From Candidatus Woesearchaeota archaeon (GTDB lineage Archaea > Nanobdellota > Nanobdellia > Woesearchaeales > JACJVW01), in contig JACJVW010000001.1 in the NCBI GenBank assembly GCA_020637435.1, positions 433,060 through 497,059 on the forward strand: a stretch of DNA of 64,000 nt. Direction: 5' to 3'. Under the pieces are notes generated by a model. That model worked only from the letters and a program-made list of their open reading frames with translations, did no database searches and was not told the origin of the DNA. Of this stretch, positions 7,827-50,000 are shown one piece after another; position 1 is the first letter of the stretch; each line of letters starts with the position of its first letter. The translations under genes were made by a program, and so were the position numbers.

Positions 7827-7859
7827 ACATTATTATACCCACATAATTTCTCCTTCATC

Positions 7860-8109
7860 TATGAGCAATAAATTTACAACAGGCAAAAAAATAGGCTCTG
7901 AGATGCTTGAAGATATACTCAATGATTTCAATCTTCGGCCCTTAAAACTTCCAAAAGAGATTCATGCGCAAAGATATTTCACTATGCTCGATAATTTTTA
8001 CATACCTGAATTTATGGGATTTGTCTACGGACTTTCCTATACCTCAGCTTGCCACCCTGTTGAAACATACAAATTTCTGACAAGAGACAAGAGTACCTCT
8101 CATATATAG
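7860..8109 (+). CDS. Small hypothetical protein (83 aa)
   Basis: Internal Met of track ORF 7714..8109 immediately after the rio1 stop. No recognisable motif. Confidence 0.25.
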
Positions 8110-8239
8110 CCAAACTCAATCAAAAAATCCAGAGACATTCTATGAGTACCCATCAATATTGATTTGTCCTTAAACGGGACCATCTTTTTTCTAAGACCAA
8201 ACCAAAAACTTTTTAAACATCTGAACCCCCAAATCAATC

Positions 8240-8465
8240 TGATTTTCAGAAATATATGTTAAAATTTAGAAGATCAATCAGAAATCAGAAATTTGGGCCC
8301 ATCAATGAAAAAGAATCTTCAGATTTACGAAAATACAATCTTAATTTCTAAAGAAATATCTGAGATTTATAGAAATAATCTGATTTTCAGAAATTTTAAC
8401 GATGATTCAGAATTTTGCGCAGATTACTCCTTAAATTCAGAGCAAAATTCTGAAATTCAGAAACA
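8240..8465. promoter_or_regulatory. Cluster of at least 5 exact TCAGAAAT octamers plus degenerate and inverted copies, upstream of the abrB-like and giant-gene operon
   Basis: TCAGAAAT occurs at 8246-8253, 8278-8285, 8285-8292 (tandem) and 8387-8394. Variants ttcagaatttt at 8406-8416, ttcagag from about 8447, inverted ttctgaa at 8449-8455 and ttcagaaac at 8456-8464 end at the ATG of the AbrB-like gene. Confidence 0.6.
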
Positions 8466-8755
8466 TGAAGAAGTATCCAAAAATAGTGCAATGTGACAAG
8501 CGAGGTCAGATAGTCATACCTAAAGACCTCCGAAATGAGCTCGGCATAGAAGAAGGCACTGGTTTTTGGATGTATGCAATCACCGATGAAGGTATTCTGC
8601 TCAAGAAGGTCGAAAACCCTGAGCTTGGGGAACACACCGACATGCTCCATGAGCTCAATGACAAAGCAGACAAGATAGATCTCTCACGTGAGAATCTTGG
8701 ACAGTCCATCGAGGAATACAAGAAGAAGAGGCAGGGCAACCTGGATGTAATATGA
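8465..8755 (+). CDS. AbrB/SpoVT/MazE-family swapped-hairpin DNA-binding protein (96 aa)
   Basis: KRGQIVIPKDLRNELGIEEGTGFWMY is the AbrB-type N-terminal beta-barrel motif, followed by an acidic C-terminal tail. Its stop overlaps the giant ORF start by 4 nt (ATGA at 8752-8755). Confidence 0.75.
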   Translation: MKKYPKIVQCDKRGQIVIPKDLRNELGIEEGTGFWMYAITDEGILLKKVENPELGEHTDMLHELNDKADKIDLSRENLGQSIEEYKKKRQGNLDVI

Positions 8756-11700
8756 GGGGGCGCACGATACTTGGTTGGTGTATGATACTTTTCGTGCTAG
8801 CTTTAAGCCTCAGCGCTTCTGCCCAGGAGCTTACTCACACCCAAGTCGAGATCGGCAAACCGGTCACCTGGAAGAAAGTCGTTTCAGACGTACCTGCAGA
8901 CGGCACGCTCAATGTCTATGTTGACAAAGATGCCCGGGACGTCAGAGTGGATGGAAGATCTGACATCACTATCAAAGAAGCTTCGATATGGGACACCTTC
9001 GTCCAAAGCTTTGGCTCAGTGACAGGTTTTGCAGTAAGCGAAGCAGGTACTGAGATCGAGTTTGAAGCGAAAGAAGGTGACGCATACACTATTGTCTACG
9101 AAACAGAAGCACCTAAAGTCTACGAATCACAAAAACAAAAGGACGATAAGCTCATCAAAGAGGTAACCATCTCCTCAGACTATCATTATACTGACATCCT
9201 TAGTTACACAGACATTCCGGAAGTGGAAGCAGAGCAAATCAAACTCTACCATAAACAGGGTGGCATCTTCTTCAAAAATAAAATAGACATCACTTCCGAT
9301 GAATCTTACCGGGTAGAATTCATGGATACCAACGGCAATGGACTTATTGACCGTGTAAAATGGGTAACGCCCCACCTTTCCACCCAGGAATTCGAAGTGG
9401 AAATCACAGTCCTTAACGTTCAGAGCTATCCGCTCATAGGTGGCAACTGGACTATCCGGTTTACTACCGCAGGTACCGCAGACCTCGCTATAAGTGCCTA
9501 CATGGGTACAACCTATGGTGAGACGCTGCCGGATGACCTGTGGCCTATTGAACTTCGTTGCGATGATACTCCGTTGGCCCCTATCTTCAACGGAACTCAT
9601 GTCGTCTATGAGGACTTCTCCTGTGATGGTGTCGCCTACCACACAGTGAAGGTCCTCACAGGCGGTAAACATTACCAGGAATTGACCTTCGGCGATGCGA
9701 CAGCGCATGCACAAAACGATGCGGGCACCGTCACGCTCTCATTCCACCATGCGGCAGGATGTAGTGGCCCCTCCACGATAACATCCTCCTCACGGGCGAA
9801 TGAGAGTGATAGTATTTACATCCTGGTTTCTTATTCGAATGATGAGAACGGCGCTGAGAATACGATAGTGGACATTACAGGCTATGTATCTGGCTGTTCT
9901 CTGGCTTCACCCGGTAATTGCTTCGGCGATGACACGCCTGCTGCGAGCACATCATCCTGCTTCCTAAGCAATTTCCCCATTCCAACAGGCCTGAGTGATT
10001 CTGAATCTGTTACAGTATCTGTCCAGAATAGCACTGGTTCCGTTGCAACAACATCCTCTACGCTCTATATCAATCATGCCCCAGGTGTCGCGGTCGCAAT
10101 CACCCCTGCAAGTCCCCTCATAGGTGAGCAGATCACTTGCACCGGAACCGTAACAGACACGGATGCAGGAGACTCTTTTACAGCAAGCTATCTCTTCGAT
10201 GTGATGGGTTCAATTGTCGACAGCGGCAGTGTGGTCTGTTCAGGAACAACCTGTACCGCCACCTGGACTTCCTCAGGGGTCAATGATGGCGACACCATAA
10301 CCTGCAATATGACGGCAATGGACAGTAATGGACTTACTAGTCCTCAGGTCGCGTCATCTGCTGCCACATTCACCACAATAAGCATCAGTCCAACTTCAGC
10401 AAGTATAGAACGTATGGGTACGCAGACCTTCACGGTCTCTGGTAGTACAGCAACTCCTTTTACCTGGAACCTTTCGGGAACTCCCGTGAATGGTTCAGCA
10501 TTCAATCCCGCAAACCCTACTACCTCGTCTGCGACAGTACAGGGACTGGAAGTGGGTTCCTATGTAGTTAATGTAACTGACAACAACGGTGCATGGACCA
10601 CAGCCACATTGACTGTCACTGACACGAACGCTCCAGCGCCTGCAACGAATGTTGTCGCGGCCGACACTCCTGGCGACCAGGGGGATAATATCACGATAAC
10701 CTGGAGCATCTCTACCGATGACGGCCAGGGAGACAATGATGTAGCCAACTATTCTGTCCTAAGGTCGACCAGCCCTACATCAGGATTTGCTGCCGTTTCT
10801 GGAGCGCTTCCCCCAGGCACAGAGATTTTTGTCGACACAACAGTCCTCCCTGATGTCAGCTATTATTACCGGGTCAGGACCATGGACATCAGTGGCAATT
10901 TTGTCGATTCTGATATCTCCGGACCTGTCAATCTCAACGGCCAGCCCATCATGCAGGAGATAATCTATTACCCGTTAAGTCCGTCTGCCCAGGATAATAT
11001 AACCTTTGTAGCATTCGCGACAGATACCGACAACGAGACGGTGACGATGAACTACACGGTAGAAGTCACTGCCTTTGACGGAGGTACTAACTATCAGGAA
11101 AGCGGAGAGGCCTGGTGCTTCTTCCTTGGTCACGGCATGAGTCAATATGGTACGACATATGCAGAGCCGACAACTGAATGTACGGTAACACTAGCATCCA
11201 GCCACTTCACCAAAGCGGACAAAGTGACTATCACTTTCACCCCTCATGACGGACAGGAGGCAGGAGACCCGCTCTCGCTAAATGGATTCATCGTTATCAA
11301 CAACAGCAGGCCAAACGCATCCAATGTATTTGTCTCGCCGATAAATCCTAACCAGTCCTCTGTGCTCAGCTGTAATTATACGTTCACCGACTTCGATGGA
11401 GACATGGAGAATACGTCCCAGGCTCGTTTCAGATGGTACATCAATAATGAAGGACTCAACGACTTTGTACTTGTGCCTGGCTACACCAGCCGGACAATTT
11501 CAGGAATCTTCGACAAAGACGACATTATCAAATGTGCAGTACAGGTCAAAGACATTGATTCCAGTTGGTTAAAACAACCTCTATACGCATCCGCATATGC
11601 TACATCAACAGAGATCACAATAAAAGACAATGCGATCCCTCAGATCATAGATTACTGGATCTCTGCAAATAACACTAACCCTGCGGCACCAGGAGATGAC

Positions 11701-14700
11701 ATCTACTTCAATGTAAGCTGGGTCGACTACGAAGACCCAAGCGACCAGGCTAGGATGTACGTCTGTGACGCATGGGAAGATATTGAGAATCAGTACGATG
11801 GTGGAACCTCTGAGATCTTCTTTGGTGATGATACAGCAAATGCTGATCAAGAAGTAAGACTCTATACGAACGAGACTGGCCAGTACGTCTACACCCTGGC
11901 AATCAAACCTACAAAATTCATCGAAAACTCCTTTACTACATACAGTCCAGGCTCCACCGTCACCGCAGGAGATGTCTTCGTAGGCTCAGCACTCCTCGAC
12001 TTCCCTCCTTATTACACTTATTATGATGCTGACCACAGCGACACATATACCCTCGGTGAGTCCATTATATGGGATAATCAGTCCATGGGAACGAACAAGA
12101 CATACAACGCGCAATACGACGTAGTCATCTACGGTGATGAAGTGGTTGATGGCAGTTCTCTAGTCAGGTTCAACGAGAGCAATATCCACACCTTTTATGA
12201 CTCAGACAGCAGCGGGACTTACACTACAGGAGATGACATCTACCTTGACAGCGGTGCAACCCCTAATCAGGTTGATGCAGGCGATGTAAGGGTAAGTATA
12301 GTCTCCAACCGGCCCTCTGCGGAGACACTTTCAACCTCCTTCATTTACGACATCATCGTCCGTGAAGTGGACAATATCGGTGATACGACCGGTCTAGTCA
12401 TAGCAAGGGACAATGACAATACCTTCACCCTTGGAAAATACAACTATTTTGTCCCGCAGTATAATGCTCAACCACTTCCTGGAAAATATCTCATGTTCAC
12501 CATCTGCATAGATGTTGATAACGACGATACTTGCGACTCAGATTCGGACAATTTCAATGATATGGTCTTTTTCAAAGCAGATCCCGCACCAGGAGCAGGT
12601 TATCAGGCGTACAATGGAACGGGCTCAGTGCACTACAACCCGGATATCAGGTTCAACTATGGTGCAAGCGAAAGCCCAGGTTGTGCGGGAGCAACCTACT
12701 GCAGCACTCCCAATTCTCCTCTCAACGATATTTCCTGCACCTATGAAGCGGTCTTCGAAAATTCGTGGAACAACACAGTCAATCTCAAGGTCTGTGATGA
12801 GCACGATGCTTGCTCTGTCAACAGAGTAGCAAACTTCTTTGTGAATCACATCCCTATAATTTCAGATCTTACCATAAACAGCAGTATAGACGGTGTCAAT
12901 ATTGACGCAGTCAATAATTTCAGCACTAGCAGGAACCTTATATGTAATTACACTGCTTCAGACAGTGACCCGCAAGGCAATACTATCGGCTTAAGCAGCG
13001 TCATCTGGTTTAAGAAAAGCCAGAGCGCAAGTGTCTTCCAGCGTGCGATAGTCCCAAACAGCACTTTACTCGCGAACAGTAATACCGAACCAGGAGACCA
13101 GTGGATCTGCCAGATCACGGTGCATGATGATTTTGATAATTCGCTAGGGACCAACTCATCTCCTGTAACGATCCTAAGTGCGCAGGGTGACGAACTGACC
13201 ATCCTATCAGTTTTTGATGATTCCTCCTTGACCGCACCTGTACTGTTGGATGAAGACGTTACCATCGAGGTCTCCTTCCTCTACACGGGAACCGATGATG
13301 TCAAAGTCTATGTCTGCAACTCTTCGTCCATAACCTCGGGTGGCTGCCTTGATCACACCTACGCAGCCACGGATTTCGTCTCGGACAACCCGATCAATGT
13401 AAGCTGGGAGGCAGATGCTCCTGGAACACACAGATACTACGTCAAGGTCTGTGATGAGTCATTCAGATGTTCAGCGGTGGTAGGGACGTCTACTGAATAC
13501 AATTACACCGTCAATCAGCGTCCTATTGTCAACTCAACGCTCCTTACGACGTATACTGGTTCGACCAACTACACAGACGCTGACCCCCTCAACTGTACCT
13601 ACATAGGCAACGACCAGGATAGCATAGGTACGGGACTAAACGCGACCTACACCTGGTTCCTCAGAAGATCAGGAGGGGCGTTCCAAAAGATTGCATTACC
13701 TCCGACAACCGCAACGATCGCAGAATCACAGACTATTCTCGGCGATGTATGGATCTGCCAGGTTGACCTTTCAGATGGTTACCATAGCGCGGATGCGCTC
13801 AACAGCAGCCCCGCATTCATTCAGAGCCTAAGTACGGGAATTATCGGCATAACTGATGTGAACGATACAGTAGGCAGTGTCGTTGAGCTCGGAGATTCCA
13901 TCGACATCGACGTCTACTGGCAGTCTGCTACCGGCGATAACGCAAAGGCATTTATCTGCAATTCCACGAGAGTGCTCGCAAGCGGTTGTCTTGATGGTAC
14001 CATTATGGAGACGAGTTATACCTCAGCAAATCCTATCTCTGCATCCATCACTCCGACAATAGGGGGGTTGCAGTATTATTATGCCATGGTCTGTGATACC
14101 TCCTGGAACTGCTCATATGTCCAAAGCTTTGACAGCAAAGGCAATAGGTTGAATTACACGGCAAACACCCCCCCTGTCATCGGATATGTTACCGTCAACA
14201 CGACTACTGACGGACTTACCCCGGACGGTCTGCAGAATTACACGGTGGACACACACCTGATCTGCAATTTCTCCATCTCGGACCCGGACATGCTTTCTGA
14301 ACCAAGTTTTGAGATTGCATGGTACAAAAATGGCCAGAAAGTAAATTTCCCTTCAGTCACTGCGATTTCAAAATGGAATACGCAGGGAGGCGAACTATGG
14401 AGTTGTGGGGTCACTCCTATAGACGAATACGGAACTTATCCGGAAATGATTTCACAAAGTGTATTCATCACGGGCATCTCTAATGAAATTGTAGTAGTTG
14501 AGAATATCACTGCTAACTACAATGAGAGCAACCCTCTACTCAATGGACAAGCTGTAACCTTCAACCTAAAGGCGATGAGCCTCAACAGCGTCTCCTGGTT
14601 CGCATACATATGTAATACCTCAAACATAGACGTCACAGGCTGCTGGGATGACCAATTCGCAACAATATCGACTGCAACAGAGGAATCCACAGCATCCTAC

Positions 14701-17700
14701 ACCACAGTCTACGAAGATCACGGAGTGATACCTTATTATGTACTGATCTGTGATACCACGTTCAACTGTTCACAGGTACAGGGAGTTGACACTGCCCTTA
14801 ATTTCACGGTTAACCATCGCCCAGTCCTTACTTATGTGCGGTTGAACACGACAGATCTTACATCAAACTTCACCAGTGACCGCAATCTGATCTGTCAGTT
14901 ATCTTACAATGACCCTTACAGCTACAACAATGGCTACAACATTTCATACACATGGTACAGGAATGGCATCCTGCAGGCATACCCTAGTAGCATGGATGTG
15001 CTCTCCAACACACAGACACAGACGGACGATGAGTGGTACTGTGAAGCTCAGGTCAGCGACGGCTATCATTCAAGTGATGTGGTTGCCGCGGCATTTGTCA
15101 ATATCAGTGACTACGCGCCAGGTTCCGTCTGGATAACGAACTTGACGACAAACAGTAATTCCAGCTCTTACCTCAGGTACCCTTCCAATGTTACCTTTAA
15201 TATTACCTGGAACTCGACAGAGATTCTTGATGTGCGGGCATTTATCTGCAGCAATAGCAGTATCGGCCCTTCTGGATGTCTCCAGACTACTATCGCCCAA
15301 AGCGGATACACCCGCAGTAATCCGATAGAATTGACCTACCTAACAACCAATAATGAATCAGGACCTACTGACTACTATGTGAAGCTCTGTGACACCTCCT
15401 TCAATTGTTCAGGAGTCGCAGGCATTAGTATACCTCAATACTACTACATCAATCAACCCCCTATTGAGACCGCTGTCTGGATGAACACGACAGACGGAAC
15501 AGACAATTTCACCAGTGACAGGAACATCATCTGTAGATATACTGCTATGGACCGGGACGATGTAAATGCGAGCGACCCACTTATACCTGAATATTATTGG
15601 TGGGTGGGATCTACCGATGACAATATGGAGTTGGTGGAAACAAGCACAAGCACACAAGTACTGACAAACAACAACTATGAACCTGGTTACTATGTACAAT
15701 GCGGCGTTCGCACTTCCGATGGGATGCACTTTGGAGACGGAACTTTCAGCCAGGCACAACAGATAAGCACCGAAGTAGTAGAAGGGATAGTTATCTCAAA
15801 TGTCACCCACAACTCGCCAACAGAGACGCCGGTGACCGAAGGCAACGTTATCCTATTCTCCATCGACTGGTACAGCAGCTACGGCCTTCCTGTAAGAGCA
15901 CACATCTGCAGCTCACCAGACTTCAACTACAGTGGCTGCTATAACACTACTCTTGCTGCATCAGGTGGTTTCTCAAGCACAAACCCGCTCATAGTAAGCA
16001 TGGCCACTAATGGATCGGAGCCGACCATACAGAACTACTGGGCAAGGATCTGTGACAACAGTTACAACTGTTCAGAGCCGTTCCCTGAAGCAGGAATAAA
16101 TCTGAATGTATCCGTCAACCACCGACCTAATGCGGTGAATGTGACTGTCAGACAATTTGATCAGTACAGTACTACGGGATTGCTCATCTGCAACTACTCT
16201 TTTAATGACACGGATATGGACCCGGAGAACGCAACTTTAGCTACATTCCTCTGGTACACAGTAACCAACAGCGTCAAATCCCTTATACCAGGACAGAACG
16301 AAAGGTTCCTCGAGGACGCGTTCAGTTATGGAGATGAGATAACCTGTAGCGCAAGAGTCGCAGACAACCATTCAGTCAGCGACAATCAGTTCAGAGATGC
16401 CAATAATACCATAAGATTCAGCGCGATACCACCTAAACCCGTCCTTTGGAATATGCCCTTTGCAGTATCTGCAGCAACAGGTAATAGGATGATAGGGTAT
16501 TTCGGTATACCTAACGTCAATTACTCAGTCCACCTGCGGCAGGAATTCAATGTGACAACGCCCGTCACCAACACAACCTCTACGGATAGCAGGTACTTCG
16601 GTTTCGCTTTCCCGGTCTACAAGGCTGCCAATAAATCTGCGTTCGTCATAGTTCACCGCGACGATCTTGACCTGTTCCAGACTGGAAGATACATCTCCTA
16701 CGACAACCATAACCGGACATACTTTGCACGATACAGGATAACAGGCAACGAAGATCTCTTCGACGATACTTACAAGGTATTTACTTCGCCTGCACTGGAG
16801 CACAATATTACCTCCTCGACCGCGATTTTCGTCTACAACAGTACCTATCCTTCAGGATGGTTCAATATGTCATTGCCATCCTTATTCGTAGGTGAAAATA
16901 CCATCAGGATCAGGGGACTGTCATCCTATGGCAATGGACCTTACCTGAATCAGACCCTCTACCTTGATCTGGAGAACCCGACCATAAACATATCCAAAAT
17001 AGGCAACTACAGTTTCAGCCACATGTCGACCATCTACTGGTCCGTCTATGACAATATCTCCCTTAAAGACATGCTCCTCCAGGTTTCTAACAGTTCAGAA
17101 ATAGTCAACTACACACTCTACGATTACAACTTCAATGACACTGACACTCAGATAGTCTGCGATGGCAATCTGACAGACCAGGACTGCCGGGTGGAGATCT
17201 ACCTCAATAATAATACCCTGCACAACCTCACATTCACAGTCACTGACAGTTCAGGAAGAAGCACGACTGAAGTACGCTATGACTACGTCGTCAATACCTC
17301 AGTGCTCCCGGTCATACTTGTCTACCAGGGTTTCATAGATGATGCTCTTGACGAGCACATCCCCGCGACCATCGCTACCAATACAACATTCACCGCAAAC
17401 TGGACCTCTGATGCACATGCCATAACACGTTACTACGAAGTCAAGATAGTAGAATATGAAGGAGACCTTCTTGTCAAAGACATGACCAACTGGACTGAAG
17501 TTGGCAAAGAGAGAAATTGGACTGCGACCGTGCCTGCACGAAACCAGTATATCTACAAATTCCATGTAAGGTCTCTATACCAGGATCTAAGCTACAGCGA
17601 AGAATTTGTCAGTGAGGGCATGTTTTATTTCGTGGATGAAGCTCCGGTCTGCATTGATTGTGTCAGATTTGTAGGCACAGATAACGGCGGGCAGACATTC

Positions 17701-20700
17701 ACAAATTCACCAGACACCATGAAAGTGGCTTGGAACTTCACAAGCGAAGCTCCTATAACTCGCTACAGGTACGCGATAGGAAAAGTAAAGTACCCTTCGC
17801 CTGGCTACAACTCTCATGCGTACAGCAACGACTATCTCAATGATGAGATAACGATAATTAAGACCATGACCGAAGGTGATCAGTATTACGCCGCTGTCAG
17901 AGCGATGAACGAGAATGGCATCTGGAGCCCCTGGTCAATAACCTTGGGCAATCTTACCGTTGACTTGACAGCTCCACAGGGTGGTTCAATAACATACCCA
18001 ACAGGATTGGTCTCTACAAACTTCTCGGTATCCTACAACGACGGGTATGACGACATCAGCGGAATTAAGTCAAGAGTACTCTATCGTGCTACCGCTCAGT
18101 TGATCAATGGGCAGTGCCAGGGATTGTATGTCTACTACCCTGTCAACAGTACCATCATACCGGGGTCAGGAAGCTACACACAGGTCATAGGCAATGGTCT
18201 TTGTTATCGGTACAAGTACATGGTCACAGACTATGTGAACAACACAGCATCATACTTCAAGGGAGAACCGTACGATGTGAAGACAGACACTACCCCTCCC
18301 AATAGTTTCAGTGTCGTCCTGAACAATGGATATTACATCACCTCATCATCAACCTTCACCGTTGACTGGACAGACAGCGCAGATGCACAGTCAGGACTCT
18401 CTCATTACAGCTACATCATCACTGAGGATGACAAGCAGATAGGCAACTGGACTAACATTACAGTTGGCAACACAACAGTGACATTTGCTCAGGTAACCCT
18501 GCCAGATCCGAGGCACCAGGCAAGCTACAGAGTTATCGTAGTTGCTCACAGCAGGAACGGTCTGACGACCCAAGTCACAAGCAATGCTGTCGCATACATA
18601 GATATTGCACCTCCATCCCCTCTTGAGCTGCTGCAGTTTGAGAATCAGACAAATATCACTACTGATAATCTTGTTGATCAGGTGAACAACAATATGACCA
18701 ATATCACCTTCCGGGGTGAGAATGGTATCAGTTGTGTCGCTTCCGTCTACCCCATAGACTATGAGATGTACGATGTATCAAAAACATACCTGACTAACTG
18801 CTCAACGGCAAACGACAATGTAACATGCAGATTCAATACGACAGAGACAGCATACTACACAAGATACATCGTCTGCAGTGACTACGCAGGCAATATGCAA
18901 TTTGTAGATGATGCTCTCAATATTACTTGGAAAGTCGATTTCATAGGTCCTGACATCAATATGACGACCAGTATACAGGGCGAAGTGCTTGGCGAGATGA
19001 TTCTGTTCAACCTTAGTATTACAGACCTCACCGCTGTCGACACAGTCATCTATGAGATAGTAAACGCGACCAGCATGTCGCAGATATTTGACTCAGGTAA
19101 ACTGACCGGTGATGAGATTTACAGCCTACTGTGGAACAGCACTGAATACTTCGCAGGTCAGACCGAACTGCTTACTATCATAATTACAGCAAATGACACA
19201 AATGGTTTCATCCAGAAATTGTTCACAAACTTCACAGTCGATAACACAAGACCTGTCATCAATATTGTCAGTCCTAATCTCAACAACAGATTCTTCAACC
19301 AGAATTTCACGCTTGATGTGCGGGTAAGAAATCCCTTCTACAACACCTCGCTTGGGATCTACAGTATGAATGGCACAAAGATGCATAGCCTGTATAATGT
19401 AAGCAATGTGCTCAGATCAAGCTATGATTATGCAGGACTTGTCGCAACAGACAGCTGGCCTGATGGAAACTACACCATAAGGGTTAATGCTTCAGGAGTA
19501 AGCAATTCCATGAATAAGAGTCTGACCATATATCTTGACAGGACCGCACCATCTCACCTCCCTATTGTCAATCCAAAAGGTCCCGTCTACAATGATGCCT
19601 CAGTGCTCCTTTGGTCGTATTGGCCTATAGAATACAACTTTGTGGCTAACACCTGCGACATAGAAGAAGTACTTATCCAGCACAATGCTACCGGCACCAT
19701 GACCAACTATACAGTAGGGGCTACAGGCTACAATTTCAGTGTAATCATACCGCCTAGCCAGTTAGACAATCACGAGCAGATAGCATGGCTTGTGCATGCA
19801 AAAGATTTCAGCGGAAACTGGAACACAACTGAGCTAAAGACATTCACAGTATCCAACAGGGCTCCCTATCTGTCTCTGGTAATACCTGACCAGGACTGGC
19901 CCGTCAACATCAACAATTCTCCTGTTGAAGCAGCAATACATCTTATCGACCCCGACCAGGACACTCTTACTTTCAGCATCATCCAGCTTCCCGAGAAATC
20001 AAAGATATATGATGAATTGAACAATCCTTCGACCATAAGTGCGAATGACGGTGAATATGATGCGGTAACCTTCCTTGTGGCAAAGAACGCCAACGGAACT
20101 GCGCTTGAAAAGGCGACGACCAACATGCTTGGCAACCCTACATTTGAAGAGGGCAATATGACCTATTTGAATTCCTGGCAGGTCGTAGGTGAACCGCAGA
20201 AGAACTGGACGCTCAATATTGAAGGTAACTACAGTGTTATTGTCAATAGGAATCACTACTACATGCAGACTGTGCCGGTAACCCCTAACACAGAATACAC
20301 CTTGAGCGCGACCATGAGGTCAGTCAGTGGTACTACTCACGGCAGATTGCATGTTGATTGGCTCGATAGCACCCAGCAATACCTCGGTACCTGCCTCATC
20401 TGTGGGCTAGGTAATACTTGTGCCTTTACGCCTGAATTAACCGTGACACCGGAAAGAAAGTCTGCAAATATGACCAGTCCTTCCGGTGCGGTGTACGCTA
20501 GGATCTATGTTGACGCACAGAACAGCAGTTATACTGTAGTAGATGATATGCAATTCGAGAAAAGTAGCTTCGCTACATCCTTCGTCAATGGATCCAGAGC
20601 TGCAACATATATCGAGTATGATATTAGTTCGCACTACAATGATTCAGCGGGAACGATAGGATTCTGGTTCAGACCTTTCTGGAATACCTCATCAGATGAA

Positions 20701-23700
20701 GACCATCTGCTGCTGCAGATGTCAGCGGATTTCGCATTGTATGCTACCAAAGAAGAGAATGACTACATGCTCAGGCTAGGCGATTCCTCTACGTATACAG
20801 AAATGAATATTACTGGCTGGAATACTGATGACTGGCACTACCTGACTATAACTTATGCATCGACCATATCATGGCTCTATGTTGACGGAAATCTTATAGG
20901 AAGTTCATACAGCGATCCGAACAGTGTTACTACGTTGTATCTTGGTAAAGCCGCATCAGATTCCATCTACGCTAACGGAATATTCGACGATCTCATCTTC
21001 ATAGGAAAGACCTATAACGCGACACAGGTCCTACAGCTCAACACGAGCGGACCTGTGCTTTCATCTCCTAACATCAATTATACGATGAACTCCAGTAACG
21101 CAGTCATTTTCTATTCCTTCGACTACAACTGGTCCGGCAGTGAAGCCGCGTACATAACTGCAGATGATGGTTACGCTATTGCGGGAAGCAACGTCTTTGG
21201 ACTGACCGTCAATCCGCTCAATATAGCACCCGTCATAGCCCCTATTCCAAACCAGACTACTTGGGACAATCAGACGTGGTCCTATACGATAAACGCGACA
21301 GACGCAGACAACCATCCTCTCACCTACGTGGTAAATGCGAGCTGGATCGAGATCAACGAGAGCGGATACATGACATTCAATCAGTCACCTCTACTTAGAG
21401 GCCACTATGGTTTGAAGCTGACGGTCTGCGATAACCAGGATGAGATCAATAGCTGTGTCAATCAGACTTTTAATCTCACGATACTCTATACAGACATGGA
21501 CAGCGATGGAATCTCAGACACCTTTGATTTCATCACAGGCAATGAGACAGGAATAGTCACAAATATACCGATCACGATGATAATCGTGAACTCCAGCTAT
21601 TTCGACAATTCGACTAACACCACTTTCTTCCTTCCTGGTTCGACCAATATTAGCCAGTATTACGGAGGACTGGTGCACATTACTCTCAAGAACAGTAGCC
21701 ATGACTTTGTGGACTTTGATTTCATACTCAATGCAACATCCATCCTTGATCTCGGCAGCATAGTTATTGAAGTGAATAATGCGAACATGAGCGCGATAAG
21801 CGTAAGTGGCCTGATACTTCCAGTAAATATGACCAAGGCAGTACATCTGCAGAAGTATAACACTACCATCATGTCTGTATGCATCAAAGATAATGCGACC
21901 ACCAATATATCAGCAATATCAGTCAACTGCACCGCAGCCGATGAGATTCTCGTGCCTTGCGACAACCAGAACTATTCAGGTTACTTCTGCGAAGACAGGA
22001 ATACCACCTACAGAGTCTCTGGTCTCAACCATTCCGCAGTAAAAGAGCAGGCTGGCTGCACAGACAAAGACGGAGACGGCTACTTCTTTGGAAGTCTGTG
22101 CATAAGTTCGCCGTTGGATTGTCAGGATACTGATCAGAACAGATACCCTGGAGCTACTGATATCTGTGGAAACGGAATCGATGAAGATTGTTCAGGCGCT
22201 GACAAGAAGTGCTCAAGTAGCAGTTCAGGCGGAGGAGGGGGCGGAAGCCGGGGCGGAAGCTCAGGTTTCATCTCAAATAAGAAACAGTGCGAAGATGGCA
22301 AAGACAATGATGGAGACGGTCTTATCGACTTGCAGGACAACGGTTGCACAAAAGAGACAGATGACGATGAGAGCGACGAATGTGTCGAGAACTGGGTCTG
22401 TGGAAACTGGAATCTTTGTGTCGACGGAAAACAGACCAGATCCTGCTATGACACAAGTGAATGCAATACCTACTATGTCAGGCCGCACATGCTGCAGAGC
22501 TGTGAATACACGCCAAAAGTGATTGAGAAAGAGGTCACCTCATGTACTGATTATTCACAGAACTATGGAGAGACAGACGTAGACTGTGGCGGAGACTGCA
22601 AAGCATGCGGACTAGGCAAGAAATGCCTCTCAAATATTGACTGCGACTCTGGTTATTGTGATAGCCTGACCAAAATATGTTCAGAGCTGCTTACGGAACC
22701 TGTCCTGCCTACCTGTTCAGACATGATACAAAACCAAGGGGAAGAAGATGTTGATTGTGGTGGACCATGTGATTCCTGCAAGACTGAAAGTGCATTCTTC
22801 CAGTGGATACTCATGTTCGTCGTAGTGCTCGGTCTTCTCGGTATAGTCGCGGGAATCGCTCTGGCCGGACTGGAAAGCCGCCCAAGAAAAGAAGAACCCT
22901 TCACTGCTGAATCCCTCAAAGCGGCAGCTGAGGATACGGAAGGAAGGATATTCCTTGAATACTACAAAGGCACAGACAAAGAAAAGATCCTTCGCATAGG
23001 CAAAGCCCTTGGCATACCGAAGAAGAGAGTTGAAGACATACTGCACCTCTCCGAGTATGCCCTGCTCATGCTCAAAAGAGGTATAAGTAAAGATGTTATT
23101 GAGAGCAAACTGCTTTCAAGAGGCTGGCCAAAAGAACTCATCGAGCTCTTCTTCATCCACAACTTCATATTCAATGACCTTATGAAGAATAAGTCTATCA
23201 TCTACAAGAAGATAGAAGACAAACGTGCTGAAGGAAAGAGTGATGAGCTGATCGCCATCGAACTTAAAGAGGAAGGGTGGCCGGAAGACGTGGTCACCAT
23301 GGCTTTACTCTTTGAAGAGCATAAAGACACTCCAAAGGAACAGCCTGCGGAAGACCTGGTAGCGGATGAAATGAGCATCCTGCTGGAATTGCATAAGGGA
23401 GCTACACCGGCATCGATCAAATCGATGCTTGCTGAAAAGGGCTGGAAACCCGAAATCATCGACTCTCTTGCAAAACTTGAAGAATCCATAAGGTTGCCGC
23501 TCTCCCGCGGTACAGAACCGGATGAGATAATCAGACAGTTCACCTCCCAGGGTTGGCCTATGGAACTCATCGAGTTTGAGATACTCCTGCAGGATATCGA
23601 AATACGTGTACTTCATGCGATGAAGAACAATATTCCTGTTGAGCAGCTCATCCAGAGTCTGAAAAAAGAAGGTTATCCGGAGAATATGGTCAGGGAAGTC

Positions 23701-24015: not shown

Positions 24016-24321
24016 CTAATCAAACTTTCTAGCGGTATATAGACCAAGGTATAAGACTAGAAGCAGTGCGAAACCGTACACAGCCGTTTGTGATCTGTAT
24101 TCTTCTGGTTTCTCTGTCGTTTTGACCTTCTCCAGACAAAGTTCGACAGGTTCACATGCGTGCCCGTCATCCATAGAGCAGCACACTGCACCATACGCAC
24201 AGTCAGCATCAGATGTGCAGACACAGTCCTCACAACCGACAACTAGCCCGGTTATCGAACCGCTCAGCAAGTACGCAACAACCATAAGCGCACCAAACCA
24301 TCCTATCCAGAATGCCTTCAT
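24016..24321 (-). CDS. Small Cys-rich membrane protein (101 aa) with an N-terminal TM or signal helix, a CxxC/CC-rich ectodomain and a C-terminal TM helix
   Basis: MKAFWIGWFGALMVVAYLLSGSI... CEDCVCTSDADCAYGAVCCSMDDGHACEPVELC ...AVYGFALLLVLYLGLY. The gene is convergent with the giant gene and a TATA-like taatattatta lies upstream. Confidence 0.5.
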   Translation of the reverse strand: MKAFWIGWFGALMVVAYLLSGSITGLVVGCEDCVCTSDADCAYGAVCCSMDDGHACEPVELCLEKVKTTEKPEEYRSQTAVYGFALLLVLYLGLYTARKFD

Positions 24322-46450: not shown

Positions 46451-47008
46451 ATGGGAGAAATCAGCTACCTGGAAGAAGCTACAATAAAGAGAGTCATAAC
46501 TAGTGTCCAGAACTCCCGCGACCAGCTGATGATACTCCTTCTCTACGAACTTGGATGCAGCCTCAAGGAATTGCTCAACATCAGGCTCAGAGACATTGAT
46601 CTTGAAAAAGAACAGATTTCTATCACTTCCACATCCGGTACGAGCAGACAAGTCAGAGACAGCCTGATTAGCGCTCCCACAAAGGAACGTATAAGAAACT
46701 ATATAAACGCCAATAACCTTGAAAATCGTAAGACCGCATACCTGTTTACATCCTCCCACAACAGGCAGATGACCTTGCGAAGAGCGACCCAGATTCTCTC
46801 TTCTTCATTGGAATCACAGGGCTTAGGAGACCTTAGTCCGCAAGTGATAAAATATTCACATATTGTGAACGCCTACCGGAGAAATGTACCCATCAGTCTT
46901 ATAAGAGAACAGGTAGGTCTGACCAAAGAAAGACTCATTTCGATCCTATTGAGTATTGATGAGCCGAACGTCGGTTCGTACAAAGAGTTCCTGGAGGGGG
47001 TGCTCTGA
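46451..47008 (+). CDS. Tyrosine-recombinase (phage-integrase family) catalytic-domain-only protein, 185 aa, without a core-binding N-domain. The canonical C-terminal Tyr is not at the expected spacing
   Basis: Colinear with the XerC/D catalytic domain: RDQLMILLLYELGCSLKELLNIRLRDIDLEKEQISI (Arg-I region), KTAYLFTSSHNRQMTLRRATQIL, and LSPQVIKYSHIVNAYRR (HxxR region, with K in place of the first R). In LGHxxxxTTxxYTH the Tyr is replaced by LISILLSI. The stop overlaps the ATG of giant gene 2 by 1 nt. Confidence 0.55.
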   Translation: MGEISYLEEATIKRVITSVQNSRDQLMILLLYELGCSLKELLNIRLRDIDLEKEQISITSTSGTSRQVRDSLISAPTKERIRNYINANNLENRKTAYLFTSSHNRQMTLRRATQILSSSLESQGLGDLSPQVIKYSHIVNAYRRNVPISLIREQVGLTKERLISILLSIDEPNVGSYKEFLEGVL

Positions 47009-50000
47009 TGCGAAAAAGAGGTAACAATAAGACCCTCACGGTCATTTTGTTAGCTTTGCTTCTGACGATATTCACTATTTCTGCAGCTCCAAACATTGAC
47101 ATCAGGATCGACATGGCCACGGAGAACCGAAGCGTCGGCGATACTGTCCAGATAGGCATCTCCACCTACATCAATAATGTCATTGTACTTTCTTTGCCCG
47201 CCAAGGTATTCATCTCAGGCCCGGAAGGCTCATCCGAACTGGCGACCAGCGATACATTCAGAGGATTGCGCATAGGAAACTTCACTCCAACCCGTGCAGG
47301 AACATATACCATCACGGCCCAGGTCATCATCAATGGCCAACCGTATGAACAGTCAGACGAGGTCGAAGTGGCACAGCCACCTTATGCGTTCACCACAGAA
47401 TACCTGGTGAACGGTACTCTGCTACAGGCTCATATCACACAACCTGCAGACCGCACAGTAAGGATAAATCTGATCAGGGAATCGCAGATAATACCTTTAT
47501 GTGAAGCCGAGTGTGCCGCTGACTGCACATTTTCCTGCCCGCTCCCAGAACTAGACAGTGCCATCATACACCTGCAGACGCAGATTGACGCAGAACCGTA
47601 CCTCTACAGCACAACAGATATCGTAACTGCAGCTATGAAGAGTATCGAATGTGAATTCGTCGCCCCGAAATACGGACTCTACACAACAATACAACTCCCA
47701 CAAGAAGACCTTCTCGAAGCCTACATCACTGGCGACCGAACAGAGCAGATAACTGATGGAACGTTTACGACAGACGCACCCGGTGCATACACCCTAATGA
47801 TGCTGTATCTACAGGACAACACAACTGTTTCCTGCAGCAAGGACTTCACGGTCAGCGCTGACGGTGACGAAGCTCGTCTAAACTTGATCGATGACTATTT
47901 TGATCCTATCTACGCAAAGACCTATACCCTCTATAATATCGAAAAAGAAGGACATGCAAACATCTGCGATGAAGCATGGTATATTGATGATACAACGGTA
48001 CAGACCATCTCGTTTCCGGCCAACCTCTCCAGAGGTCAGCTCCTCTGCAAATCAGCTCCTGCCAATATGAGCAAGGCCGATGCTGAAACGTATGTAACCT
48101 TCCTTCGAAGCGGAGCCGCGACATTCTTCAACGTAGGCTTCAGCTCATTTGAATCGTACGCCTACATCCTCAAAGACTCAGTTGCGAAGGAGATACTTGG
48201 CCCCTACAACAAGACCATACATACGCAGAACTTCACCACCATAATCGGTCCGCCTGCTCTGTATGCGGTAGTGCACAAGAATATGGCAGAGTCGGAAACT
48301 GACTTAAGCGTGGGACCGGTACTGGTCATCCCAATGGAAGAGAATGCTTCCATAAGCTACATCAATGGCACTACCCTATTCATCCGGGAAAAGACAGCCC
48401 TGCAAAGAGAAGACATCTTCCAAAGCCAGGGAGTAAGATTTGTCCAAGAGTTGCAGCTAAAACCAAGGGAAGACACCATCACAGAGACAGACAAGCAGAT
48501 ACTCAGTGATGCGCAGACGATCGAACTCATCAGTCCAGAACTAAAGAAGATACATCTGCCCGCAGGCATCATACCCAAGGAGACTCCTCATGGCATGTAC
48601 ATGCTTCACGAGATCTTCTATGGCAACGCAAGCAGAGTAAGCAGGATAACTATCATAGGGACTGAAGCCAATCTGAGCATCAGCGAAGGCAAACAGAAGA
48701 ACGCGACAAAAGGCGATACAGTAAGATTCGTACATACGATCGTCAACTCGATAAGGGACGGTTCAGCCATCATTGAGGTGCAGATAGGAGACACTGCTGC
48801 GCAGGTAAGCGTAAACGTCATCGAAGGATCCATCGAAGTCCCCATCACTGATACGAACAACAACGGCATACCTGACTTAGGCATCATGTTGCCAGGAGAG
48901 GATAAAGAGATCCTGATTACAGCCATCGTCCCTAAGAATGCAAGCGCAGGAAATCACACTATCCCTATCACTGTGCAAGACCTGCAGCGAAGCATTGGAA
49001 ACACGGTCTATGATCTCATCCACGTAGAAGCTGACCTCTTCGAACCAGTCTACAGCAACGACCTTGACCTCTACGCTATCGAAGAGCATGAAGGACAATT
49101 GCAGATCCTTATTCAGAATAATTTCATGGATGAAAAAGAGGCTCAATTGACGTTGCACATAGGCAACAATAGCATTGTCGAGAATATAATCGTCCCAAAA
49201 GACAGCACATTCATGTTCACTTATCCTGTCGAGGATCTCTCCTCCAATGAGAAGATCGAAGCGGTGCTGACTGCATTTGGCGAATCGAACAAGAACAACA
49301 ACCAAAGAACATTCCTGCGTGCTCAGAGATGGACAGAAGACAGAAGTTATAGGAAGACATTGTACCTCACTGAGAAAGAGCATCAGGACCATGAACAGTA
49401 CAGATTCCGTGCATCTGCAGCTCGTGACGGCATGGATCTCTCATCCATCCGCCTTACCTACGCAACAGACACAACAGAAGGTATAGGTTATGCGTATCCA
49501 CTATTTTCTATCACCGCATACGATGAGAAGCAGGTCGACCTCATCATAGAGTTGAGTATGCTACCCAAGAACACGGTAGTTCCGTTATACATCTATTACG
49601 ATAAATCCGAAGCATCAATCCCCCCAAATACAAGCGCTCACCTGCCAGAGATCATCATCGACAACACCAATCGTACGGTGCAGATGAATGGGAGATGGGG
49701 TTCCGACTACGTCTCAAGAGAATACTATGGTTCAGGTTATCTTCATGATTTCGCAAGAGGCAAAGGAGAAAAATCTGTCATCTATGGCTTACAGGTACCT
49801 AAGTCCGACTATGAAGTCTACATGACGTATCCGACAGACCCTACGTTCTCAAAGCATGTACCTGTCTCAATAACAGGCACAGAGGGTACCCAGACTATCT
49901 ATATTGATCAAGACAGACGTCCACAGGATTGGACTTACCTTGGAGTATATGCCCTTGACAGCAACAGTCAGATTACTATCTCAAACGCAAAGACAGAAGG

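What the first reader, a model, noticed from the sequence alone, without database searches (positions are those of the whole stretch)
8821..9660. A ~290-aa module is shared between the N-terminus of giant 1 and an internal segment of giant 2 (about 50565-51440)
Giant 1 reads EIGKPVTWKKVV...YTIVYETEAPKVY...YTDIPEVEAEQIKLY...FMDTNGNGLIDRVKWVTPHLSTQEFEVEITVLNVQSYPLIGGNWTIRFTTAGTADLAI...LRCDD. Giant 2 reads EIGHPVQWKKIV...YIIEYTTPAPDI...YTDVDESLPEQLHLY...LIDTNANGLIDKVQWLTPQLSEQNFSLEIDLTILNLQSYPTLYKNWTVLFNTTGTANLTI...VRCG. The motif order and spacing are conserved. This marks the two giants as paralogues sharing a common module, possibly an anchoring or processing module. In giant 2 it has been displaced about 1190 aa inward by an N-terminal extension.
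Basis: seen in the sequence. Interest (0 to 1): 0.55.

Follow-up and report, generated by a model that had tools for sequence, protein, structure and literature searches.

The report
Unnamed surface-protein domain shared by two giants
The two giant genes of this Woesearchaeota archaeon share one real ~300-residue, all-beta extracellular domain that belongs to a large, so far unnamed family found in thousands of big archaeal surface proteins; its function has not been tested.

Summary
Giant 1 (8752-23988, 5078 aa) residues 25-329 and giant 2 (from ATG 47008, runs off the window) residues 1190-1553 align at 29-31% identity. E is 2e-33 with low-complexity masking; the real score is 134 bits against at most 28 for shuffles. 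The module occurs once per giant, and nothing else in the two proteins matches strongly.

The giants are therefore not whole-length paralogues. They are two separate architectures, each with its own full-length orthologues, that share one domain. That domain defines a large family: 2379 protein clusters in an exhaustive profile search. Records carrying it are labelled Woesearchaeota/Nanoarchaeota, other DPANN phyla, Methanosarcinales/Methanoperedens and Nitrososphaerota. It has no Pfam, NCBIfam or PDB sequence match, and the database names seen for the proteins do not refer to this domain.

A confident AlphaFold2 model (pLDDT 88.5) is all-beta. It resembles solved structures only loosely, Ig-like adhesin domains at best. 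Conserved features are a DxNxNGxxD calcium-type loop, a cysteine pair and several N-glycosylation sequons.

My best reading is a constant extracellular connector or attachment unit placed N-terminal to variable binding domains. Naturally split versions, in which an anchored gene and a payload gene each carry part of the module, support this. The "anchoring/processing" idea is only partly supported.

The parts
8752..23988 (+). Giant 1, 5078 aa. It is NCBI MCB9362274.1 (hypothetical protein H6504_02465, Candidatus Woesearchaeota archaeon), whose start is called 10 codons later. Layout: signal peptide, module, about 4350 aa ectodomain, one TM helix, about 370 aa cytoplasmic tail.
   Evidence: ORF list. 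Identity to P0003 and its source name. Pfam finds only Laminin_G_3, MopE and a weak CBM_4_9. Hydrophobic segments.
8752..8823 (+). Giant 1 Sec-type signal peptide, MRGRTILGWCMILFVLALSLSASA. Cleavage after ASA is inferred. The module begins at the first mature residue, Q25.
   Evidence: Hydrophobic segment aa 4-24. Profile envelope starts at aa 25. The cleavage site is an inference from the AxA motif.
8824..9738 (+). Module copy 1 (giant 1 aa 25-329).
   Evidence: BLASTP. hmmsearch envelope 25-329. AF2 model pLDDT 88.5.
8848..8877 (+). N-terminal motif EIGKPVTWKK. In the family P, V and W are 76-79% conserved, with about 19% gaps because some members lack the first subdomain.
   Evidence: Column frequencies.
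8986..9039 (+). Variable loop: a short helix (IWDTFVQS) followed by the VTGFAVS motif. It is the only stretch of 7 residues below pLDDT 50 in the model (a 4-residue stretch at segment 198-201 and the last few residues are also low). An [ILVMF]TGx[AVI][ILVTA] motif occurs here in 58 of 151 family members.
   Evidence: pLDDT below 50 at segment residues 66-72, which are aa 90-96. Motif density is 1.55 per 1000 aa inside the module against 0.40 outside.
9325..9351 (+). DTNGNGLID: a DxDxDG-type calcium-binding-like loop. Family conservation: D 99%, N/D 98%, N/D 99%, G/S 87%, D/E 97%. An invariant Trp (W204) follows it.
   Evidence: Column frequencies. Sub-threshold EF-hand hits in 3 of 33 members. 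Ca binding itself is inferred.
9559..9624 (+). Conserved cysteine pair C270 and C291 (96-97% of members), a presumed disulfide in the last beta-sandwich.
   Evidence: The disulfide is inferred.
22783..22878 (+). Giant 1 transmembrane helix (aa 4678-4709), the actual membrane anchor.
   Evidence: Hydropathy 2.97. The orthologue P0005 has the same feature at aa 4358-4390.
22879..23985 (+). Giant 1 cytoplasmic tail with repeated helical '...GWP(E/K)..' units.
   Evidence: Sequence. Only sub-threshold RecX_HTH1-like hits.
47008..64000 (+). Giant 2: at least 5664 aa and open to the end of the window. Signal peptide MRKRGNNKTLTVILLALLLTIFTISA.
   Evidence: Frame analysis. Pfam: Golvesin_C (aa 882-1008), DUF2341 (aa 2315-2386), 17 FG-GAP_3 stretches, sub-threshold Big_13.
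47086..50574 (+). Giant 2 N-terminal extension (aa 27-1189) that precedes the module. It includes Golvesin_C at nt 49651-50031. The extension is conserved in giant 2 orthologues.
50575..51666 (+). Module copy 2 (giant 2 aa 1190-1553). Features: EIGHPVQWKK at 50599-50628, DTNANGLID at 51184-51210, Cys1478 (within VRCGA, 51433-51447) and Cys1520 (within DWNCSQ, 51556-51573). It has no ITGFAV-type motif.

Best explanation
**What it is.** The shared segment is one copy each of a conserved, previously unnamed extracellular domain module of about 300 aa. The AlphaFold2 model is all-beta, with about 24 strands. I infer about three subdomains from where partial matches begin, from the variable loops and from the strand pattern; I could not inspect coordinates.

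**Where it occurs.** The module occurs once per protein, towards the N-terminus, in thousands of large modular archaeal surface proteins.

**Proposed role.** The module is the constant part of these proteins. It is a calcium-stabilised, disulfide-bonded and probably N-glycosylated unit. It joins the N-terminal side (signal peptide, signal anchor or upstream domains) to a variable 'payload' of binding domains. Observed payloads are LamG, FG-GAP, beta-helix, DUF2341 and Ig-like repeats. In doing so it probably serves as an attachment or assembly interface at the cell surface.

**The two giants.** They are independent architectures that both use this unit.
- Giant 1 carries it directly after the signal peptide. 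It would sit at the far end of a type I membrane protein with a C-terminal TM helix and a cytoplasmic tail.
- Giant 2 carries it behind a conserved extension of about 1190 aa.

**Shown:** homology, family size, taxonomic labels of the records, confident all-beta fold, conserved motifs, variable partners, split variants.

**Inferred:** extracellular location, Ca2+ binding, disulfide, glycosylation, and the connector/attachment role.
For: **Homology between the two copies:** E = 2e-33 and 6e-41, and 134 bits against at most 28 bits for shuffles.

**Family size.** An exhaustive profile search of 1.84 billion representatives found 2379 clusters at E <= 1e-3, 1679 at <= 1e-10 and 579 at <= 1e-30. 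Member proteins reach 7665 aa.

**Taxa.** 273 confirmed loci in GTDB species genomes. Their records are labelled Woesearchaeota, Nanoarchaeota, Pacearchaeota, Aenigmarchaeota, Micrarchaeota, Altiarchaeota, Methanosarcinales/Methanoperedens, Halobacteriota and Nitrososphaerota. They include the complete genome of Nitrosotalea devanaterra.

**Once per protein and N-proximal.** The median start is aa 342. A hydrophobic N-terminal segment lies upstream in 107 of 131 Met-starting members.

**Variable partners.** Downstream regions fall into many unrelated clusters. Pfam finds NosD/beta-helix, FG-GAP, Big_7 (sub-threshold), Laminin_G_3 or nothing.

**Structure.** The AF2 model built on 33 sequences has pLDDT 88.5, is all-beta, and shows no catalytic-type fold. 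The only Foldseek hit with probability 1.0 is the Ig-like domains of the adhesin PrgB. AgI/II BspA and the C. perfringens pili protein B collagen-binding domains also appear.

**Conserved motifs.**
- A DxNxNGxxD loop conserved at 87-99%.
- A Cys pair conserved at 96-97%.
- Seven columns that carry N-x-S/T sequons in 46-70% of members.

**Split variants.** Six members end at the variable loop after profile column 250 with a charged tail that I read as helical. In two independent locus types the next large gene starts with its own signal peptide and a charged stretch, also read as helical. It then carries the remaining module columns (about 250-305, iE 6.5e-17 to 6e-23) and goes on to sequence read by eye as a beta-helix repeat in L088; in L082 the full 2412-aa product has Laminin_G_3, LVIVD and Beta_helix on record. 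This places the module at the joint between an anchored part and a payload part.
Against: - No experiment or functional annotation exists for any member. The database names seen are 'hypothetical protein', or names taken from other domains.
- The position relative to the membrane is not constant. In giant 1 the anchor is about 4350 aa away at the C-terminus. A simple 'membrane-proximal base' role therefore cannot hold for every member.
- Structural matches have very low TM-scores (0.1-0.26), so even the 'Ig-like adhesin' label is loose.
- Ca binding, the disulfide and glycosylation are motif-level inferences. Giant 1 has a sequon at only one (NWT) of the seven frequently sequon-bearing positions.
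- The split-gene evidence comes from a few metagenomic contigs. In one locus type 5 kb of toxin-antitoxin-like genes lie between the halves, so those cases could be disrupted genes and not functional two-subunit proteins.
Confidence: 0.55

Rival explanations
1. The module is itself the ligand- or host-binding head: a Ca2+-dependent lectin-like or protein-binding tip. In giant 1 it would be the business end at the distal N-terminus of an extended stalk, used by this DPANN archaeon to bind a host cell or a substrate.
For: In giant 1 and its orthologues the module is the first thing after the signal peptide, at the opposite end from the TM anchor. It has a conserved Ca-type loop and aromatic residues. 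The literature assigns host attachment to giant DPANN surface proteins (PMC10266531).
Against: In most members the module is internal or close to an N-terminal hydrophobic anchor. The family also occurs in records from lineages generally regarded as free-living, such as Nitrosotalea and Methanoperedens (the lifestyle is my own knowledge). The module is the conserved part, while the regions expected to give specificity (LamG, FG-GAP, beta-helix) are the variable ones.
Confidence: 0.2
2. It is a purely structural spacer: a fixed block of beta-sandwich domains with no specific interaction, kept only because it folds well at the start of long ectodomains.
For: The fold is all-beta and resembles the Ig-like stalk domains of Gram-positive adhesins. 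There is no catalytic signature, and weak profile hits to other Ig-like repeats occur inside the giants.
Against: Generic stalk domains are normally repeated in tandem, but this module is strictly single-copy per protein. More than 40 columns are at least 85% conserved across very distant archaeal lineages, which is far more than spacer Ig repeats usually show. The split variants keep both halves.
Confidence: 0.15
3. It is a processing or secretion-related module. The disordered loop that carries the helix and the ITGFAV-type motif would be a recognition or cleavage site, or the module would be recognised by an export or glycosylation machinery.
For: The motif is about four-fold enriched in the module's variable loop (58 of 151 members). 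The same kind of motif follows N-terminal hydrophobic segments in other members, and in a small ORF next to giant 1 at 24016-24321 on the minus strand. In giant 1 that loop is the only 7-residue stretch below pLDDT 50 in the model.
Against: The motif is absent from giant 2 and from about 60% of members. No protease, sortase or archaeosortase signal was found. No conserved partner gene was seen next to the giants or the small members.
Confidence: 0.07
4. It is a class II fusion-protein-like (fusexin-like) ectodomain, as the top Foldseek hits to flavivirus E glycoproteins suggest.
For: Flavivirus E chains dominate the PDB and viral Foldseek lists at E about 1e-5 to 1e-3.
Against: TM-scores are 0.10-0.16 with rmsd about 26 A, and the alignments are longer than the query. 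That is no real superposition, even of a single domain. Probabilities are about 0.2-0.6. There is no sequence similarity. The pattern fits a generic match between elongated all-beta proteins.
Confidence: 0.03

Closest known systems
Giant membrane-anchored surface proteins of DPANN archaea (for example the nanohaloarchaeal 'SPEARE' proteins SVXNc_0300 and BNXNv_0298)
   Same: Both are multi-thousand-residue proteins in DPANN genomes. For SVXNc_0300, PMC10266531 describes a Sec signal peptide, a huge ectodomain rich in Ig-like domains and a cytosol-facing domain. Giant 1 has a similar layout: a signal peptide, a large ectodomain, a TM helix and a cytoplasmic tail.
   Different: No VirB4-like ATPase domain was found in giant 1. 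Nanohaloarchaeota were not among the 80 best GTDB loci carrying the module. The module itself is not described in that paper. Whether SPEARE proteins contain it was not tested.
Ig-like (DEv-IgG type) stalk domains of Gram-positive adhesins: the PrgB Ig-like domains (8beg), the antigen I/II BspA C-terminal domain (5dza) and the C. perfringens pili protein B collagen-binding domains (8gsx)
   Same: All are all-beta, tandem sandwich-like extracellular domains of surface proteins. These are the highest-probability Foldseek hits (probabilities 1.00, 0.80 and 0.94). From my own knowledge, some of these families bind Ca2+ and carry intramolecular isopeptide bonds. The module has a Ca-type loop and a conserved Lys/Asn pair (K136 and N322, 93% and 97%).
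   Different: TM-scores are only 0.18-0.26 and sequence identity 8-10%. The family is archaeal, single-copy per protein and has no sequence relationship to these proteins. An isopeptide bond is pure speculation here.
Conserved N-terminal modules of bacterial giant adhesins (the TPS domain of two-partner-secretion adhesins; the N-terminal retention module of RTX adhesins)
   Same: The logic is the same: one constant N-proximal module, followed by long and highly variable repeat and ligand-binding regions, in many paralogues. This comparison rests on my own knowledge.
   Different: The fold and the secretion context differ. TPS is a beta-helix recognised by an outer-membrane transporter, and most archaea have no outer membrane. 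This is a functional analogy only, with no homology.
DxDxDG calcium-binding loops (EF-hand, FG-GAP/integrin, dockerin type)
   Same: The loop D-x-[ND]-x-[ND]-[GS]-x-[IV]-[DE] fits the motif and is 87-99% conserved. Three of 33 members give sub-threshold EF-hand Pfam hits.
   Different: It is a single loop embedded between beta strands of a larger domain. No Pfam EF-hand, FG-GAP or dockerin model reaches threshold on the module.

Membership tests
Any Pfam-A family (2025 copy) | A match at or above the gathering score on the module. | tested here: not met
   Both copies give only hits at E >= 0.038, far below the cut-offs. Among 33 diverse members no family is shared; the best are FN3_Tor_3rd in 3 members (E 0.044) and EF-hand_5 in 2 (E 0.0088).
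Any NCBIfam family (release 20.0) | A match at or above the curated cut-off. | tested here: not met
   The best hit has E 0.0012 at 18.6 bits against a cut-off of 122, and lies in an unrelated helical insert of giant 2.
Proteins with a solved structure (PDB, by sequence) | A significant profile-to-sequence match. | tested here: not met
   The best E is 0.81.
The new module family itself (as defined here by profile A3) | A full-length profile match with the EIGKPVxW motif, the DxNxNGxxD loop, QSYPxxGxW, the Cys pair and the terminal A-x-N. | tested here: met
   Giant 1 scores 484 bits and giant 2 494 bits on the 4-sequence profile. Giant 1 is the top hit of the exhaustive search, at 1.8e-140. 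All the motifs are present in both copies.
Class II viral fusion proteins / fusexins | A three-domain DI-DII-DIII fold that superposes on E/HAP2-type structures. | tested here: not met
   Foldseek E is about 1e-5, but TM is 0.10-0.16 and rmsd about 26 A.
Ig-like adhesin stalk domains (AgI/II C-domain / PrgB type) | A DEv-IgG beta-sandwich superposing with TM above 0.5. | tested here: inconclusive
   Probability is 0.8-1.0, but TM is only 0.18-0.26 for the whole three-part model. Subdomains could not be searched separately.
Ig-like adhesin stalk domains (AgI/II C-domain / PrgB type) | An intramolecular Lys-Asn isopeptide bond with a catalytic Asp or Glu. | not testable with these tools
   K136 is 93% and N322 97% conserved, and acidic residues are conserved too. 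Their spatial proximity could not be checked.
DxDxDG calcium-binding loops | The sequence motif D-x-[DN]-x-[DN]-G with an acidic residue at position 9 or 12. | tested here: met
   DTNGNGLID in giant 1 and DTNANGLID in giant 2. Family frequencies are 99%, 98%, 99%, 87% and 97%.
DxDxDG calcium-binding loops | Bound Ca2+. | not testable with these tools
   This needs a structure with metal, or a binding assay.
Whole-length paralogy of giant 1 and giant 2 | Significant similarity along most of both proteins. | tested here: not met
   Outside the module the best HSPs have E = 0.003 and 0.013, between generic Ig-like repeats. Each giant has a different set of full-length orthologues.

The most novel reading that the evidence does not exclude
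The module is a dedicated assembly joint of archaeal surface proteins. Its last beta-sandwich can be formed either within one chain, as in both giants, or between two chains. In the two-chain case a membrane-anchored 'base' subunit ends in a charged helix, and a separately secreted 'payload' subunit starts with a complementary helix. The two halves would be locked by what becomes an inter-chain disulfide, with one conserved Cys on each gene. That would amount to a plug-in system that lets archaea exchange surface payloads on a constant base, and it would explain why one constant module precedes so many different payloads.
Probability: 0.15. Interest if true: 0.7.

Novelty: new variant of a known kind. 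Interest (0 to 1): 0.45.

Why it matters
Giant surface proteins take up a large share of the small genomes of DPANN archaea. They are assumed to mediate contact with hosts, yet they are almost entirely unannotated.

This module is a widespread landmark in such proteins. It has at least 2379 clusters in records labelled as DPANN, methanogen/methanotroph-related and ammonia-oxidising archaea. It has no name in Pfam or NCBIfam and no solved relative by sequence.

Defining it gives three things:
- a handle for finding and classifying these proteins;
- a clear boundary between a constant part and variable binding parts;
- through the split variants, a testable idea of how the proteins are assembled on the cell surface.

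It is not a new kind of biology in itself. It is a new domain family within the known class of modular cell-surface proteins.

Tried and rejected
- **Pfam and NCBIfam** scans of both copies and of 33 diverse members found nothing at threshold.
- **PDB sequence profile search** found nothing.
- **First AF2 run** with 4 sequences had pLDDT 53 and was unusable. It was superseded by the 33-sequence model.
- **Foldseek against PDB and BFVD.** The top hits to flavivirus E and bunyavirus glycoproteins were rejected as real similarity because TM is about 0.12 and rmsd about 26 A.
- **Word-index protein search.** It found only 2 hits with a single sequence and 17 with the profile. This badly under-reports the family compared with the exhaustive search.
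- **Conserved neighbour genes.** No consistent partner gene was found next to the giants or next to the small family members.
- **Invertible-promoter-type inverted repeats** near the integrase-family gene upstream of giant 2: only short, weak pairs.
- **The common upstream cadherin-like domain** was not detected in front of the giant 2 module by HMM, despite a resemblance by eye. Giant 1 has it only near aa 4105-4235.
- **tRNA and Rfam scans** of the window were empty.
- **Literature searches** found no description of this module. They found only general accounts of giant DPANN surface proteins and of DUF2341 proteins as putative pilus-tip adhesins.
Full report
**1. The genes**

The window carries archaeal housekeeping genes. 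They include topoisomerase VI subunits A and B, a RIO kinase, a KH-domain protein, a proteasome-ATPase-like AAA protein with the proteasomal OB domain, and CTP synthase.

Giant 1 is the ORF 8752-23988 on the + strand, 5078 aa. It is identical to NCBI MCB9362274.1, a 'hypothetical protein H6504_02465' of a Candidatus Woesearchaeota archaeon on a 782-kb contig. The NCBI start is called 10 codons later.

Giant 2 starts at ATG 47008 in frame 1 and is still open at the end of the window, so it is at least 5664 aa.

Both giants begin with Sec-type signal peptides. Giant 1 also has a single strong transmembrane helix at aa 4678-4709, followed by a tail of about 370 aa made of helical 'GWP' repeats. 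Its predicted topology is therefore type I, with an ectodomain of about 4650 aa. The orthologue P0005 has the same layout.

**2. The observation**

BLASTP of the two full proteins with SEG masking gives exactly one strong HSP. It joins giant 1 aa 25-322 to giant 2 aa 1190-1551, at 29% identity over 371 columns and E = 2e-33. The next best HSPs have E = 0.003 and 0.013 and join generic repeat domains.

The segment-only comparison gives 31% identity and E = 6e-41. Against shuffled copies of the giant 2 segment, the real score is 134 bits and the best shuffle 28.1 bits. A profile of the module finds one copy in each giant and nothing else of note.

It runs to about nt 9738 in giant 1 and about nt 51666 in giant 2, ending in a conserved ...F.FG....A.N motif. 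The giant 2 copy is about 60 aa longer because of insertions at four variable loops.

**3. What it is not**

Neither copy matches any Pfam-A or NCBIfam model. The same holds for 33 diverse relatives. A profile search of all PDB sequences has a best E of 0.81. Source names for members are 'hypothetical protein', or are taken from other domains in the same protein, such as 'MopE-related' and 'DUF2341 domain-containing'.

**4. The family**

The word-index search found only two relatives. The exhaustive HMMER search of 1.84 billion cluster representatives used a four-sequence profile. It found 2379 proteins at E <= 1e-3, 1679 at <= 1e-10 and 579 at <= 1e-30.

The best 150 are mostly large proteins, up to 7665 aa. 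The module is almost always a single contiguous match. Its start ranges from aa 46 to aa 1131 (5th-95th percentile) with a median of 342. A hydrophobic N-terminal segment lies upstream in 107 of 131 Met-starting proteins.

A scan of one genome per GTDB species gave 273 confirmed loci. Their records are labelled as follows:
- Woesearchaeota, Nanoarchaeota and Nanobdellota;
- Pacearchaeota, Aenigmarchaeota, Micrarchaeota and Altiarchaeota;
- Methanosarcinales, including Methanoperedens;
- Halobacteriota;
- Nitrososphaerota, including the complete genome of Nitrosotalea devanaterra.

Some labels on third-party assemblies may be imprecise. Several genomes hold more than one locus. In Nitrososphaerota and many Methanosarcinales hits only profile positions from about 76 onward match, so the first subdomain is optional.

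**5. The two giants are not paralogues as wholes**

Giant 1 aligns end to end with P0005 (4690 aa), P0007 and P0014. Giant 2 aligns with P0050 (5700 aa), P0063, P0042 and P0098. In these the module sits at aa 1194-1404, behind an equally long extension. These are two old, separately conserved architectures that share one domain.

Downstream of the module the family is very heterogeneous. All-against-all BLAST of the 220 aa that follow the module gives many small clusters and 39 singletons. Pfam finds NosD/beta-helix, FG-GAP, Big_7 (sub-threshold), Laminin_G_3 or nothing.

Upstream, 72 of 129 members share a cadherin-like domain of about 110 aa that directly abuts the module. Giant 1 lacks it at that position.

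**6. Anatomy of the module**

AlphaFold2 with 33 sequences gives a confident model, with mean pLDDT 88.5 and pTM 0.62. It has about 24 beta strands and one short helix.

In giant 1 the only stretch of 7 residues below pLDDT 50 is aa 90-96, 'VTGFAVS'; a 4-residue stretch at segment 198-201 and the last few residues are also low. It lies just after the helix, in a loop whose length varies by up to 110 aa across the family.

More than 40 columns are at least 85% conserved, nearly all of them in the C-terminal two-thirds (giant 1 aa 116-322). The notable features are:
- a D-x-[ND]-x-[ND]-[GS]-x-[IV]-[DE] loop at 87-99% conservation, followed by an invariant Trp. This is the DxDxDG calcium-loop pattern. 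Three of 33 members give sub-threshold EF-hand hits;
- a Cys pair at 96-97% (giant 1 C270 and C291);
- the QSYPxxGxW motif;
- seven columns that hold N-x-S/T sequons in 46-70% of members. Giant 1 keeps one of these and giant 2 four.

These features, together with the signal peptides, point to an extracellular, glycosylated, metal- and disulfide-stabilised domain. That conclusion is an inference.

**7. Structural neighbours**

The Foldseek lists are headed by flavivirus E proteins at E about 1e-5. Their TM-scores are 0.10-0.16, their rmsd is about 26 A, and the alignments are longer than the query. I do not regard this as real similarity.

The matches with high probability are Ig-like domains of Gram-positive surface adhesins: PrgB at 1.00, the C. 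perfringens pili protein B collagen-binding domains at 0.94, and AgI/II BspA at 0.80. These also have low TM, 0.18-0.26, as expected when a multi-domain model is compared as a rigid body.

The fold class is therefore 'tandem beta-sandwich, adhesin-like' and no more precise than that. I could not search subdomains separately.

**8. A clue to function: split variants**

Six family members stop shortly after the first conserved Cys. The stop falls at the variable loop after profile column 250, which is the loop where giant 2 has a 21-aa insert. Each ends in a charged tail that I read as helical, for example ...YKIKRRIEEIKKQLEELE.

In two independent locus types the next large gene on the same strand begins with its own signal peptide and a charged stretch, also read as helical. 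It then carries the rest of the module, including the second conserved Cys:

| Locus | Profile columns | iE |
|---|---|---|
| L082 | 250-301 | 6.5e-17 |
| L088 | 236-302 | 4.8e-19 |
| L089 | 236-305 | 6.1e-23 |

In L088 the sequence after the module looks by eye like a beta-helix repeat. In L082 the full 2412-aa product has Laminin_G_3, LVIVD and Beta_helix on record.

In L088/L089 only a 31-aa ORF separates the halves. In L081/L082 about 5 kb of nucleotidyltransferase-type cassettes do.

I read this as evidence that the module is the joint between an anchored N-terminal part and a payload. The two halves may be able to reassemble, possibly with an inter-chain disulfide. The alternative is that these are simply genes disrupted by insertions. 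Both readings are inference.

**9. Best explanation and rivals**

I favour a constant connector or attachment unit of modular archaeal surface proteins (confidence about 0.55). The rivals are:
- a ligand-binding head (0.2), which is attractive for giant 1, where the module is at the distal N-terminus;
- an inert structural block (0.15);
- a processing or secretion signal built around the ITGFAV-type loop motif (0.07);
- a class II fusogen-like domain (0.03).

A connector role does survive.

**10. Novelty**

The kind is known: giant, modular, Ig-rich surface proteins of DPANN and other archaea (PMC10266531). The module itself is an undescribed domain family of considerable size and breadth, comparable to a new DUF with a good structural model. 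The split variant adds an unusual twist. It is interesting for annotation and for archaeal cell-surface biology, but it is not a new mechanism on present evidence.

Noticed in passing
L082 296-2200 with 7598-9200; L088 299-2032 with 2174-2893; L089 103-1836 with 1978-2319; also P0116, P0147, P0157 and P0159: These are naturally split versions of the module. Gene A (TM anchor plus module columns 1 to about 255) ends in a charged tail that I read as helical. Gene B has its own signal peptide and a charged stretch, also read as helical. It then carries module columns about 250-305, followed by sequence read by eye as a beta-helix repeat in L088 (the full L082 product has Laminin_G_3, LVIVD and Beta_helix on record). 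One conserved Cys lies on each gene. This could be a two-subunit assembly, or genes disrupted by insertions.
   Followed up: partly
window 8986-9039 (giant 1 aa 79-96); window 24016-24321 (-): A short motif, [ILVMF]TGx[AVI][ILVTA] (for example VTGFAV, ITGYAV), is about four-fold enriched in the variable loop of the module (58 of 151 members). It is often preceded there by an amphipathic helix. The same motif follows N-terminal hydrophobic segments in other family members. It also follows one in a 101-aa Cys-rich ORF just downstream of giant 1 on the opposite strand (...LLSGSITGLVVGCEDC...). Its meaning is unknown.
   Followed up: partly
window 8465-8755 (+): A 96-aa AbrB/MazE-type (SpoVT/AbrB fold) protein gene ends 4 nt into the start of giant 1, which suggests co-transcription or a dedicated regulator. 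A cluster of 18-nt inverted repeats (TTCAGAAATTT-type) lies just upstream at 8379-8461.
   Followed up: partly
window 46451-47008 (+): A 185-aa ORF matches only the catalytic domain of the phage-integrase (tyrosine recombinase) family (E 1e-13). Its stop codon overlaps the ATG of giant 2 by one base. No convincing inverted repeats for an invertible element were found nearby.
   Followed up: partly
window 22879-23985 (giant 1 aa 4710-5078): The cytoplasmic tail of giant 1 is built of repeated helical units of about 35-45 aa containing 'GWP(E/K)'. Similar units occur at the N-terminal, presumably cytoplasmic, ends of other family members (for example P0060, P0021 and P0062), ahead of their TM segment.
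   Followed up: no
upstream of the module in 72 of 129 family members (for example P0001 aa 25-122); giant 1 aa 4105-4235 (window about 21064-21456): A second unannotated conserved domain of about 110 aa, cadherin-like by eye (...IPNITIEKNSNYTIDLSEYFSDADNDKLSYSV...), directly abuts the module in most members. In giant 1 it is found only near the C-terminal end of the ectodomain.
   Followed up: partly
window 1087-3003 (-): A full-length RelA/SpoT-type (p)ppGpp synthetase/hydrolase gene (HD_4, RelA_SpoT, TGS and ACT domains) sits in this Woesearchaeota window. As far as I know, long RSH enzymes are uncommon in archaea.
   Followed up: no
window 49651-50031 (giant 2 aa 882-1008): There is a clear Golvesin_C domain (E 1.8e-20) in the N-terminal extension of giant 2. 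The same protein also has DUF2341 (aa 2315-2386) and 17 FG-GAP_3 stretches.
   Followed up: no
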